This document shows, piece after piece, positions 57,001-64,000 of a stretch of 64,000 bases of DNA; the first letter of the stretch is position 1, and every line of letters begins with the position of its first letter. Source of the DNA: Thermodesulfobacteriota bacterium. Its GTDB lineage: Bacteria; Desulfobacterota; Desulfobacteria; Desulfobacterales; SURF-7. Location: NCBI GenBank assembly GCA_049320885.1, contig JBMORA010000042.1, forward strand, positions 27,134 through 91,133, in the 5' to 3' direction. A program made the position numbers.

Positions 57001-60000
57001 TGCCGGCTCTTTCCCGCGCCGTGGGACTCCTCGCCCTCGAGATTGTTGTGGATCTCCAGGGTGCTTTTCCCCAGCAGAAAGAGACCACCGAGAATCAGAA
57101 TCAAATCCCGCCCGGATATGGTCATCGTGAAAACCGTAAAGAGGGGCTCCGTCAGCTTCATGATCAGCGTGATGGAGAGCAACAGGATGATCCGGGTGAG
57201 CATGGCCACCGCGAGTCCGACGTTGCGCCCCCGGGCCTGCTGATCCGGGGGGAGCTTGGCGGCGATGATGGCGATGAAAATGATGTTATCGATTCCGAGA
57301 ACAATTTCAAGGGCCGTCAAGGTAACCAGCGCCAGCCAGACATGGGGGTCCGTCAGCCAGTGCATTTGAGTCCTCTTTCGATCTGTTGGTATCCCGGACC
57401 GGGCATGCCGTGACCGGGGGATTGGGTTATTTTTCAAGGGAAGCGGCGGACATCGGAAGACACGATAGCGGAACAAGGGGCAAGTTGACAAGTGCAAATT
57501 CGGCAGAATCGTCAGAAAACAGCCGGCAATACCCATCCCCGGCGCCGGGCGACGATCTATCCCAGTTCAGCGATCCCGCCGCATTGACAGGAGTCCGGAT
57601 CGTTGATAGGTTTATGTTGCTCTGCCGCCCTGATGCTCAGTCAAATCGGCGCGGCCGGGGCCCGAAACCATTCCATAATTTGGTGAAAGGAGTAATCGCC
57701 ATGACCCAATCGGTTCAGATTTTCGGTAAAAATACCTGACCATTCACAACGGCGGCCCGGGAGGCGCTCGCCAAGCAAGGCAAGCAGGTGCTGTATCACA
57801 ATGTCCTTGAGGACGAGGAAAAAATGCAACTGATGCTGCGCTATTCGGACGGACGGCGTAAAGTGCCCGTCATCGTGGAAGGAGACCAGGTCACCATCGG
57901 TTTCCACGGGAAAGCCTGAGGGGTATGATGATCACGGTTGGATACCGTGGATGGGAATCGAAATCATTTAACGTCAAGTTCTGCGTTGTTTCGCAGGGGA
58001 ATTGAAGCACCATGAGGGAAAAGCAGTTTCTGATCGATGAACTGAAAGTCGAAGAGTCCTGGCGGCTGTTCAAAATCTTGGGAGAGTTCGTCGAAGGCAT
58101 TGAAAGTCTGCACGATATCGGGCCGGCTGTCAGCATTTTCGGGTCCGCCAGGATCAAGCCCAAGGATCCGGTTTACAAAAAAACCGAAGCCCTCGCCTCC
58201 CTGCTGGCCCAAAACGGTTTCTGTGTGATCACCGGCGGAGGCGGAGGCGTGATGGAAGCGGCCAACAAGGGGGCTGCCGCCGCGGGTGGAAAGTCCATTG
58301 GACTGAATATCGTGCTGCCGTTTGAGCAAAAGCCCAATCCGTATGCCAATCTTCAACTCGAATTCAAATATTTTTTCATCCGCAAGGTCATGTTTGTCAA
58401 ATACGCCCAGGCCTATATCATCATGCCCGGGGGGCTCGGGACCCTGGACGAACTTTTCGAGGCGGTTACCCTCATTCAGACCCGCCGGATCAAACCCTTC
58501 CCCGTCATCCTGGTGGGTTCCGATCACTGGTCCGGTTTGATGGACTGGATCAAGGCCCAGCTGATCAGCCATCAGTTGATTTCAAAAGAGGATCTGGATA
58601 TATTTCAAATCCTGGATGAGCCCGAGGAAATCGTCAAAACCCTGAAAAAGACCGTCATTGTCTGACATCCAGGGGATTCCATGGAAACAACCCATCAGAT
58701 ATATTATACTTCCTCCATCGACATGCGGATGGTGAAACCGGAAAGCATCGATCTGCTGGTCACCTCCCCGCCCTACCCAATGATCGAGATGTGGGATGAG
58801 GTGTTCATTTCCCAGGACAAGAATATCCGCACACAGCTGAAAGATTGCCAGCCCTGGACTGCTTTTGAAAACATGCACCGGCTCCTCGACAAGGTCTGGG
58901 ATGAAGCCTGGCGCACCCTGAAACCCGGCGGATTTGTCTGCATCAATATCGGCGATGCCGCGCGCACCATCGCCGACCATTTCGCACTGTACCCGAACCA
59001 TGCCCGCATCCTGACCTGCCTGATCCGGCTGGGATTCACCCCCCTGCCGGTGATCCTGTGGCGCAAGCAAACCAACGCCCCGAACAAATTCATGGGATCG
59101 GGAATGCTGCCGGCCGGGGCCTATGTCACCCTGGAACACGAATACGTCCTCATCGCCCGCAAGAAAGGCAAACGACTGTTTGCCGACGACGATCAGAAAG
59201 CCGCCCGCAGCGGCAGCGCCATTTTCTGGGAGGAACGCAACGACTGGTTTTCGGATGTCTGGATGGATCTCAAAGGAACGGTCCAAAAGCTCGGCGATGA
59301 CACGGTCCGCAAGCGCAGCGGCGCCTTTCCCTTCGAGTTGCCCTACCGGCTGATCAGCATGTTTTCCGTGAAAGGCGATACGGTCCTGGACCCCTTCATG
59401 GGGTTAGGCACCACCATACTGGCGGCCATGGCCGCGGCCCGCAACAGCATCGGTTACGAACTGGCCGCCGACTTCCGGAGCACCGTCGAATCCCGGGTTG
59501 AAGGCGTCCTCGCCCTGGCCAATGAACGTATCGAAAAAAGACTGGAACAGCATCTCCGGTTTGTCCGGGAACGCCGGGAAAAAAACGGCGACTTCCGGCA
59601 TCAAAACCGGCATTACGGCTTCCCGGTGATCACCGGCCAGGAAAAAAACCTATTGATTCATTCTTTGAAGTCCGTGCGGCAGGAAAAGACCGACCGGTAC
59701 CGCGTCATTTACGACGAAACCCCCCAGCAGCGGTTTTGCGGTGATCCAGGCCCCAAGCCGGAATCCCCTTCCCCGGCGCAACCGCTGAAGCGGAAAGGCA
59801 GGCCGGTCCGATCTTCGGCCTCGAAACAACAGCAGCTGACCTTGCTGGATTGAAACGGGGAGGGCATACCGGCGGCGAAAAAATTCCCCATGGACCTGAA
59901 AGGAAGATCACTGATGATCAAATCCAAGGCATTGGAGGTCAATATCGCCGACTACCGGGTCGATGTGGTCATCGACCCCCGATATGCGCTGCTCCAGAAT

Positions 60001-63000: not shown

Positions 63001-64000
63001 CACGGTATGGCTCACGGTCTTGAGCGCAACGCCTTTGACGCTGTCATCAACGAATACAAGGCCCGGCTTGGAATTCCATATAAAAGCGATTTCAGCGGCG
63101 AACAGATGAAAACCGTGGCCCTGGCGTATAAAGAACTAGTCCTTGGCTCCCGCATCGAGATCCTTGAAGATCCATTTGAGCAACTGCTCCTCAGCATCAA
63201 GAACGTGTTTGACTCCTGGGAATCCCCGAAAGCCAAGGCCTATCGTAAAATCATGGGCATTTCCGATGACTGGGGGACCGCGGCGACTGTCCAGTCCATG
63301 GTCTTCGGTAATCTCTCGGCCCAGTCCGGAACCGGTGTTCTCTTCACCCACAGCCCCCGGCTGTCCCGTGATTCCCTGCGGTTGTGGGGAGATTTCACCA
63401 TCGGGAACCAGGGGGAGGATGTGGTGGCCGGACTGGTCAAGACCCTGCCCATTTCCCGGATTCAGCAGGAAATGGAGCAACGGGAAACGGACATTACCCT
63501 TGAAACCCATTTCCCGGAGGTATACAATACTCTTAAAGCATACGTTTTTCAGTTGATCTACGATAAGGGCTGGAGCCCTCAGGAAATGGAATTTACGTTC
63601 GAGCGGCCTTCCCGGAACGATCTGTATCTCCTGCAAACCCGCGACATGTCCATGCGGGAGCGCAAAAAAGAGTATATTTTCGACCTGTATGACGTGCTGG
63701 GCAAGGACATTTTCCTGGGACACGGCATCGGCGTGAGCGGCGGCGCCCTCAGCGGCCGGATCGTTTTCACCCTGAAAGAGATCGATGACTGGCGGAGAAA
63801 AGAACCGGAAAGGCGATTAATCCTGGTGCGCGGCGATACAGTGCCCGACGACATCCTTGAAATATCCGCCAGTGACGGCTTGCTGACCGCCAGGGGCGGG
63901 CTGACTTCCCATGCCGCCGTGGTGGCCCATCGCCTGGAAAAAACCTGCGTGGTGGGATGCGGCAATCTGATCTGCAATGAAAAACAGAAAACAGCCCTGT

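What a model noticed while it worked through the whole genome (the two positions that open the first line are those of the whole stretch)
59914..63999. Acceptor-less 1400-aa dikinase (ATP-grasp + phospho-His) tied to the Wood-Ljungdahl acs operon
g03342 has an 880-aa all-helical N-terminal region, the PPDK ATP-grasp domain and the phospho-His swivel (TSHAAVV, His1333) but no pyruvate-binding domain. It is an order-wide family that often follows acsE at the end of the ACS/CODH cluster, so it is a dikinase with an unknown acceptor, not a PPDK.
Evidence so far: N-terminal 900 aa found in 32 of 41 genomes, 42-61% identity, frames ~1400 aa. Full-length relatives end right after the His domain; acsE directly upstream in 8 of 29 loci, other acs-cluster genes (RACo, DUF3786, HD) in 4 more. 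N-region model pLDDT 81, only generic solenoid matches. Two ordinary PPDKs exist (g02008, g04807). Paper search 138: none.
(Added by a program. Inside this text positions count along the whole contig: contig position 27,134 is position 1 of the stretch shown here. "Call 12" and the like, gene names such as g00115 and contig names such as C1 are that model's own, and its searches are not shown. The text may have been shortened before it was handed on; [...] marks where a part breaks off. The agent that wrote the report below was given it as the finding of a first reader that could run no searches.)

Follow-up and report, generated by a model that had tools for sequence, protein, structure and literature searches.

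The report
New dikinase paired with special GAPDH
This large enzyme of anaerobic bacteria keeps the ATP-driven phosphate-carrying arm of pyruvate phosphate dikinase, has a new helical domain in place of the pyruvate-binding one, and nearly always comes with a special glyceraldehyde-3-phosphate dehydrogenase, which points to an undescribed step in sugar-phosphate synthesis rather than a part of the CO2-fixation pathway.

Summary
The anatomy is confirmed: about 895 mostly helical N-terminal residues, a PPDK ATP-grasp domain and phospho-His1333, with no pyruvate barrel. The missing end lies on contig C64, directly followed by a long GAPDH-like gene (GapL).

GapL, not acsE, is the constant partner. 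It is the next gene in 63 of 63 loci with downstream DNA, and all 87 dikinase-positive genomes of 301 in the phylum carry it. The acs link is real in Desulfobacterales (41 of 47) but absent from 99 distant loci.

A complex prediction docks His1333 on the conserved E840/R844/D857 face of the N-region (score 0.69, best control 0.00; mark reached by 116 of 157 solved and 2 of 215 mismatched pairs). The fold matched nothing solved.

Best reading (0.5): an AMP/PPi-forming 3-phosphoglycerate dikinase feeding an NADP-type GAPDH, parallel to PGK. Rivals: acetate dikinase with GapL as transacetylase (0.2), VadK-like regulatory kinase (0.15), another acid (0.15). No activity was measured.

The scan reported this pair before on other DNA (nine notes). 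Ten paper searches found no description.

The parts
59914..63999 (+). Dikinase gene, first 1362 of about 1393 codons. The rest and the partner gene gapL lie on contig C64 (gapL at C64:196027-197274, minus strand). An alternative ATG is at 59890.
   Evidence: relatives start at the 59914 equivalent
59914..60903 (+). Residues 1-330: poorly conserved region, probably a helical scaffold (not modelled here)
   Evidence: 4 of 330 columns at least 90% conserved; weak profile hits only to designed helical repeats
60904..62073 (+). Residues 331-720: conserved core with motifs DTDLF, EIGAEGELR, HFLRKQxHVES, KRHI and IPSMYG. It holds 13 conserved basic residues and is the candidate acceptor pocket.
   Evidence: 53 columns at least 90% conserved in 52 diverse sequences; model pLDDT 95; no fold match
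62074..62598 (+). Residues 721-895: helical bundle on which the His domain is predicted to dock; E840 (62431), R844 (62443), D857 (62482)
   Evidence: R844 and D857 in 52 of 52 and 85 of 85 sequences, E840 in 50 of 52 with D in the other two
62599..63663 (+). Residues 896-1250: PPDK-type ATP-grasp domain with K910, R982, R1025, D1169, E1226, Q1241 and R1243 conserved
63664..63999 (+). Residues 1251-1362: phospho-His swivel domain, cut by the contig end; His1333 at 63910-63912
   Evidence: PF00391; His in 51 of 52 sequences

Best explanation
The protein is a swivelling-His dikinase whose acceptor site is in its own N-terminal region, and it works with the long GAPDH (GapL) at the 3-phosphoglycerate / 1,3-bisphosphoglycerate step. 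Step 1 (inferred from conserved PPDK residues): ATP + Pi + His1333 give AMP + PPi + phospho-His. Step 2 (predicted): the His domain swings to the bundle around E840/R844/D857. Step 3 (inferred): the phosphate goes to a carboxylate held by the basic core, most likely 3-phosphoglycerate, giving 1,3-bisphosphoglycerate. Step 4 (inferred): GapL, probably NADP(H)-using, reduces it to glyceraldehyde-3-phosphate. This is an AMP-forming route parallel to PGK, as PPDK is parallel to pyruvate kinase. Spending two phosphoanhydride bonds would pull the hardest step of gluconeogenesis in cells with low energy charge. The reverse direction (ATP from 1,3-BPG + AMP + PPi) is also possible.
For: Coupling: GapL is the next gene in 63 of 63 loci with at least 700 bp downstream (80 loci fetched). 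Co-presence in the order: 110 both, 4 dikinase only, 6 GapL only, 31 neither of 151; in the phylum: 87, 0, 3, 211 of 301. GapL chemistry: the C149, H176/T179, R195, R231 and N313 motifs are kept in 75 of 75 sequences and T208-G209 in 72, so both anion sites and the nicotinamide site look intact. Asp32 is replaced by N-x-G-R in 75 of 75; Asp32 binds the adenosine 2'-OH of NAD (PMC3728087, passages). Context: in 19 loci from other families GapL is adjacent in 16, a short GAPDH in 12, and pgk lies within two genes in 6, three of them in gap-pgk-tpiA-secG. In six genomes where GapL is away from the dikinase it stands directly before pgk (G162, G215, G235, G323, G351, G397). In the distant clade a GAPDH is adjacent in 45 of 51 loci with both flanks. 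Docking: score 0.69, best control 0.00; runs agree in at least 90% of contacts; partner pLDDT at least 83; mark reached by 116 of 157 solved and 2 of 215 mismatched pairs, roughly, as my own alignment was used. G067 (99% complete, 3 contigs) has dikinase and GapL but no PGK match in three searches.
Against: PGK is kept almost everywhere: 144 of 151 and 298 of 301. This genome also has two canonical GAPDHs, so the module would be redundant. The three phylum genomes without PGK lack the dikinase too, so missing PGK also arises in drafts. In G067 a contig end lies under 3 kb beyond the spot where its relative keeps pgk. Linkage to gap-pgk could be a relic of gapL arising by tandem duplication; pgk was in 0 of 80 distant loci. 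The confident predicted contacts involve only the bundle, not the basic core, so the site could be a parking place for phospho-His. A free 1,3-BPG producer would not need a dedicated GAPDH, so the strict pairing needs channelling or cofactor specificity. No activity or ligand was tested.
Confidence: 0.5

Rival explanations
1. Acetate dikinase plus a GAPDH-derived phosphotransacetylase: acetate + ATP + Pi give acetyl-phosphate + AMP + PPi, and GapL moves the acetyl group via Cys149 to CoA bound in the Rossmann site. The net reaction is a reversible equivalent of AMP-forming acetyl-CoA synthetase, feeding or draining ACS/CODH.
For: Tight linkage to the acs cluster in the order (41 of 47). Mild anti-correlation with acetate kinase in the order: 46 of 114 dikinase-positive against 23 of 37 negative genomes, p=0.024, kin not independent. 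N-x-G-R could bind the 3'-phosphate of CoA; CoA binding in GAPDH-fold acylating dehydrogenases is recalled, not tested. Desulfotignum phosphitoxidans shows phosphate acetyltransferase activity without the gene (PMC4046663, passages); I did not check whether it has this module. AMP/PPi-linked ATP formation from acetyl-CoA exists in Syntrophus (PMC4992975, passages).
Against: No anti-correlation in the phylum: 25 of 87 against 77 of 214, p=0.28. No acs, ack or pta gene in 80 distant loci and no acs gene in 19 others. This genome has acetate-kinase-family and Pta-family genes. GapL keeps the nicotinamide and substrate-phosphate residues. A second, short GAPDH stays adjacent in distant lineages. 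Syntrophus extracts had low Pta activity.
Confidence: 0.2
2. Regulatory protein kinase or energy sensor like mycobacterial VadK: phospho-His phosphorylates GapL, a short GAPDH or the bundle's own acidic residue, and the N-region is a docking and sensing scaffold.
For: VadK is a barrel-less PPDK derivative that autophosphorylates on His and interacts with metabolic enzymes (bioRxiv 10.1101/2025.10.30.685616; abstract and sections 27, 35, 36). The best non-PPDK model hit is PRK05878 (301 bits, cut-off 456). Three members carry a hemerythrin domain. The strict 1:1 pairing fits a physical partner.
Against: VadK is about 50 kDa, with only the ATP-binding and His domains described. Here the His docks in cis on invariant residues and the core has an enzyme-like cluster of 13 basic and 8 acidic conserved residues. 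The same dikinase sits beside different GAPDH types.
Confidence: 0.15
3. Same acyl-phosphate logic with another acid (for example glycerate or a four-carbon phospho-acid); GapL reduces a dedicated acyl-phosphate that canonical PGK and GAPDH do not handle.
For: It explains the strict pairing and why PGK and GAPDH are kept. GapL is a separate clade (support 100/100, 16 of 29 rows), falls below the TIGR01534 cut-off (322.9 against 367.2) and has its own insertions.
Against: No recurring pathway gene for another substrate turned up among the neighbours examined. The substrate-site residues match those of GAPDH.
Confidence: 0.15

Closest known systems
Pyruvate, phosphate dikinase (PPDK, EC 2.7.9.1; TIGR01828; PDB 1KBL, 9PZL)
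   Same: ATP-grasp and His swivel align over PPDK residues 17-516 (profile E 1.5e-142); catalytic motifs are conserved.
   Different: No PEP/pyruvate barrel; about 895 extra N-terminal residues of unmatched fold; shorter linker between ATP-grasp and His domain; below cut-off.
VadK (Rv1127c; probably the PRK05878 / NF004531 family, link recalled)
   Same: PPDK-derived ATP-grasp plus His domain without the barrel; VadK's His autophosphorylation was shown.
   Different: VadK is about 50 kDa with no large N-region and is proposed to regulate the methylcitrate cycle; this protein scores 301 against a cut-off of 456 and is paired with GapL.
Rifampin phosphotransferase, PigC/RedH, phenylphosphate synthase, glucan water dikinase
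   Same: Swivel-His phosphotransfer to an acceptor other than pyruvate via a separate acceptor domain (recalled).
   Different: Domain order here is acceptor region, ATP-grasp, His. RPH and RedH models score only 22-23 bits on short stretches. None of these was listed in the fold searches.
Type I GAPDH, including NADP-linked gluconeogenic GapB (for the partner GapL)
   Same: Catalytic and anion-binding motifs are kept.
   Different: About 416 aa with insertions, Asp32 replaced by N-x-G-R, below the TIGR01534 cut-off, separate clade.

Membership tests
PPDK | ATP-grasp domain with catalytic Lys/Arg/Glu/Gln/Arg residues | tested here: met
   K910, R982, R1025, D1169, E1226, Q1241, R1243 conserved in 96-100% of 52 sequences; aligned to PPDK; PPDK numbering and roles (K22, R92, R135, D280, E323, Q335, R337) are recalled
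PPDK | Phospho-His swivel domain with TSHAA | tested here: met
   PF00391; His1333 in 51 of 52
PPDK | C-terminal PEP/pyruvate-binding barrel | tested here: not met
   Stop codon about 31 residues past the window on C64; relatives end likewise
PPDK | TIGR01828 score above cut-off | tested here: not met
   363.6 against 843.45
PEP synthase (pyruvate, water dikinase) | TIGR01418 score above cut-off, with barrel | tested here: not met
   62.8 against 739.75
VadK / PRK05878 | ATP-grasp plus His domain, no barrel | tested here: met
VadK / PRK05878 | About 500 aa without N-region; NF004531 above cut-off | tested here: not met
   1393 aa; 301 against 456
VadK / PRK05878 | Autophosphorylation and regulation of partner enzymes | not testable with these tools
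   needs an assay
Rifampin phosphotransferase / PigC type | Order ATP-grasp, acceptor domain, His (recalled) | tested here: not met
   The extra region precedes the ATP-grasp
Rifampin phosphotransferase / PigC type | Acceptor-domain fold | tested here: inconclusive
   Not among the listed rows
Glucan, water dikinase | Carbohydrate-binding modules, and His before a C-terminal ATP-grasp (recalled) | tested here: not met
   No CBM in Pfam; His follows the ATP-grasp
Type I GAPDH (partner GapL) | C149, H176, T179, T208-G209, R231, N313 | tested here: met
   75 of 75 for all but T208-G209, which is 72 of 75
Type I GAPDH (partner GapL) | TIGR01534 above cut-off; Asp32 | tested here: not met
   322.9 against 367.2; N-x-G-R at that position
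Type I GAPDH (partner GapL) | NAD(P)-linked oxidation of glyceraldehyde-3-phosphate | not testable with these tools
   needs an assay

The most novel reading that the evidence does not exclude
A carboxylate dikinase of a kind I found no description of: an AMP/PPi-linked enzyme with a new acceptor fold that makes an acyl-phosphate (1,3-bisphosphoglycerate or acetyl-phosphate) and hands it to a dedicated GAPDH-fold partner. It would be an unrecognised core step of carbon and energy metabolism in hundreds of sulfate reducers and other anaerobes, an alternative to PGK or to Ack/Pta.
Probability: 0.75. Interest if true: 0.85.

Novelty: new variant of a known kind. Interest (0 to 1): 0.7.

Why it matters
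Databases label this protein PPDK, so metabolic models of Desulfobacterota may assign it a reaction it cannot do. It is in three quarters of the sampled genomes of this order (114 of 151) and in 87 of 301 of the phylum, and named relatives occur in Thermodesulfobacterium, Bacteroidales, Myxococcales and Thermoleophilia. If it makes acyl-phosphates at the cost of ATP to AMP + PPi, it adds a reaction to central metabolism and bears on how energy-starved anaerobes drive gluconeogenesis or handle acetate, AMP and pyrophosphate. The residues named here (H1333, E840, R844, D857, and the R504-K505-H508 and K681-R682-H683 motifs) make it directly testable.

Tried and rejected
Obligate Wood-Ljungdahl component: rejected. 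General PGK replacement: rejected, PGK is nearly universal. Truncated or pseudogene PPDK: rejected, the end is on C64 and the architecture is conserved. Fold searches: model of residues 328-904, Foldseek no E<=0.001, wide search best Z 9.8, rmsd 2.7, 95 aligned, on a generic bundle; model of residues 373-722, best Z 6.5, rmsd 3.1, 82 aligned, Foldseek none. Unlisted families are not excluded. The ESM Atlas gave only the family's own clusters, best score 0.84. No RNA holder was listed. Acetate-kinase anti-correlation was seen in the order and not in the phylum. The idea that the short neighbouring GAPDHs are catalytically dead was dropped: all 11 examined keep C149, H176 and R231. The 814-aa frame in L131 is not a GapL-PGK fusion but an overlapping frame. 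Paper searches returned nothing; others listed nothing on this family by title or abstract start; one gave VadK and 83 background on cofactor choice. I have a vague, unverified recollection of the term 'acetate dikinase' in recent literature; one search found no paper with it, and most subscription papers are not in the library. Not tested: stand-alone or fused forms of the N-region outside 749-2384 aa, a dikinase-GapL complex, and residues 1-327.
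Full report
**Observation.** The frame at 59914-63999 (+) runs to the end of contig C42. Pfam finds only the PPDK ATP-grasp and the phospho-His domain, and every NCBIfam model stays below its cut-off (TIGR01828 363.6 of 843.45; PRK05878 301 of 456). The missing ~31 codons lie at one end of contig C64. The two ends overlap exactly by 15 bp and the C64 piece is 88% identical over 34 residues to the tail of the closest relative. The join is inferred; it is backed by G111 of the same genus, where the region is on one contig. The protein is thus about 1393 aa with no pyruvate barrel. Two true PPDKs exist elsewhere, and the acs cluster is on C13.

**Family.** The N-terminal 879 residues match in 114 of 151 genomes of the order (86 of 113 high-quality). 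A protein search gave 2686 hits among 8000 scored candidates; the 120 listed are mostly about 1392 aa with the same two Pfam domains. The 50%-cluster library gave 596 hits. Named distant members come from Desulfobacterium, Thermodesulfobacterium geofontis, Bacteroidales, Myxococcales and Thermoleophilia (10 clusters looked up). In a phylum sample, 87 of 301 genomes have a match reaching into the N-region. I read this from the 150 listed rows and left out one divergent paralog (G283); 522 weaker rows were not listed.

**Anatomy.** In 52 diverse sequences, columns conserved at 90% or more number 4 in residues 1-330, 53 in 331-720, 5 in 721-895, 79 in the ATP-grasp and 20 in the His domain. The PPDK catalytic motifs are all kept (their roles are recalled), so ATP + Pi giving AMP + PPi + phospho-His is the expected first half-reaction. 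The core holds 13 conserved basic and 8 acidic residues. Models of residues 328-904 and 373-722 are confident (pLDDT 94 and 95) but match no solved fold: no Foldseek hit at E<=0.001, best Z 9.8 and 6.5 on generic bundles.

**Where the His goes.** I folded residues 328-900 with residues 1258-1393 of the 83%-identical full-length relative P0001 as two chains. The score was 0.69 against a best control of 0.00. Runs agreed in at least 90% of contacts and partner pLDDT was at least 83. The mark was reached by 116 of 157 solved and 2 of 215 mismatched pairs, roughly, since my own alignment was used. His1333 contacts E840 and R844, and D857 contacts residues 1330-1331. These are three of the five conserved columns of that bundle. 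Both pieces come from one chain, but no like complex turned up in my structure searches, so memory of a solved pair is unlikely. The result supports a second station for the His inside the protein. It does not show the acceptor, and no confident contact to the basic core was listed.

**The acs link.** Of 47 genomes with dikinase and acsB on one contig, 41 have the dikinase within 12 kb downstream on the same strand. I dropped two genomes whose only CdhC match was a short paralog. acsE lies within ~3 kb upstream in 36 of 61 loci with enough DNA, directly upstream in 13 (80 best of 593 confirmed loci). Presence is only weakly associated (95 both, 19 dikinase only, 25 acsB only, 12 neither; p=0.06). 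No acs gene was found in 19 family loci from other families (20 fetched) or in 80 distant metagenome loci, some redundant. The acs position is a feature of this order, not of the family.

**The real partner.** A ~416-aa GAPDH-like gene (GapL) is the next gene in 63 of 63 loci with at least 700 bp downstream, and in this genome across the contig break. Co-presence is 110/4/6/31 (both, dikinase only, GapL only, neither) in the order and 87/0/3/211 in the phylum; kin are not independent. In the 19 other-family loci GapL is adjacent in 16 (three convergently), a short GAPDH in 12, either in 18, and pgk lies within two genes in 6. In six genomes where GapL is elsewhere it directly precedes pgk; in at least one such case (G202) it does not. 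In the distant clade GapL is in 48 of 80 loci, a short GAPDH in 32, and either is adjacent in 45 of 51 with both flanks; pgk, tpiA, ack and pta are in none.

**What GapL looks like.** It forms its own clade, scores below the type I cut-off while the genome's two canonical GAPDHs pass, and keeps the catalytic, anion-site and nicotinamide motifs in 72-75 of 75 sequences. Asp32 is replaced by N-x-G-R in all 75. Asp32 binds the adenosine 2'-OH of NAD (PMC3728087, passages), so NADP(H), or possibly CoA, is suggested but not shown.

**Mechanism.** A kinase followed by a GAPDH-fold enzyme is the usual acyl-phosphate relay. I commit to 3-phosphoglycerate as acceptor (0.5). With hydrolysis energies of -52 (1,3-BPG) and -32 kJ/mol (ATP) from PMC5610209 (passages), PGK costs about +20 kJ/mol in the gluconeogenic direction. 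With recalled values of about -44 for ATP to AMP + PPi and -20 for PPi, the dikinase route costs about +8, or about -12 after PPi hydrolysis. Against it, PGK is present in 144 of 151 and 298 of 301 genomes, so this is a parallel route. All seven order genomes without PGK have the dikinase, but five are under 90% complete. G067 (99%) is suggestive only, as a contig end lies near the expected spot, and the three phylum genomes without PGK lack the dikinase.

**Rivals.** Acetate dikinase with GapL as transacetylase (0.2) fits the acs position and a mild acetate-kinase anti-correlation in the order (46 of 114 against 23 of 37, p=0.024, three weak matches dropped). It is not supported in the phylum (25 of 87 against 77 of 214, p=0.28), and this genome has Ack- and Pta-family genes. 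Passages on D. phosphitoxidans and S. aciditrophicus show that acetate metabolism in this phylum has gaps, but I did not check those species for the module. A VadK-like regulatory kinase (0.15) has precedent (bioRxiv 10.1101/2025.10.30.685616; abstract, sections 27, 35, 36; supplements not seen) but leaves the conserved N-region unexplained. Another acid substrate takes the remaining 0.15.

**Known or new.** It works like a PPDK-superfamily swivel dikinase but is not a PPDK, PEP synthase, VadK, RPH or GWD by the features tested. Ten paper searches showed no description of the family in their listings; subscription literature is largely missing. This scan noted the dikinase-GAPDH pair on other DNA in nine earlier reports. 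I had found the pairing before looking, and those notes are not independent evidence. I saw only a few lines of each, so I cannot say whether the docking site, the presence counts or the PGK-less genome were reported there.

**Verdict.** A real, widespread and apparently uncharacterised enzyme pair; new variant of a known kind; interest 0.7. The acceptor remains inferred.

Noticed in passing
G067 (L227, L228, L230): Near-complete genome (99%, 3 contigs) with dikinase, GapL and two canonical GAPDHs but no PGK match in three searches; pgk is not at the spot where relative G129 keeps it, but a contig end is near. G147 (94%) also lacks a PGK match.
   Followed up: partly
P0154, P0158, P0172: Family members with an N-terminal hemerythrin domain, hinting at oxygen or redox control.
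   Followed up: no
L134:7310-11938: Divergent 1543-aa paralog (25% identity) with no GAPDH in the fetched stretch; by eye it keeps acidic, Arg and Asp residues at the 840/844/857 positions but not the RKQxH and KRH motifs. It may have another acceptor.
   Followed up: partly
L141, L149, L157, L161, L177, L186, L193, L196, L205, L213, L215: A distinct short GAPDH type upstream of the dikinase in distant loci: Pro after H176 and Ser for G209, position 32 acidic. A possible second subunit for GapL.
   Followed up: partly
G027, G398, G425: GapL without a detected dikinase; the G027 copy has an internal stop, as if decaying after partner loss.
   Followed up: no
G245:C1:505500-507924: Second copy of gapL-pgk with the same scores as the copy beside the dikinase.
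   Followed up: no
window 42538-49865: TetR regulator, fused isobutyryl-CoA mutase IcmF (above cut-off), thiolase, 3-hydroxyacyl-CoA dehydrogenase and acyl-CoA dehydrogenase: a branched or short fatty-acid cluster.
   Followed up: no
window 55454-59853: SelD-N-like FAD oxidoreductase, TerC, LOG/SLOG protein and an N4/N6 DNA methylase precede the dikinase; none was among the recurring neighbours that I annotated.
   Followed up: partly
window 60247-62214 (-): 655-codon antisense frame inside the dikinase gene; similar antisense frames recur in related loci. Probably a shadow of codon usage.
   Followed up: no
L033-L112: Downstream of gapL, ksgA-type rRNA methylase (28 of 80 loci), a ~130-aa protein (23) and an M16C peptidase (23) recur in Desulfobacterales.
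   Followed up: no
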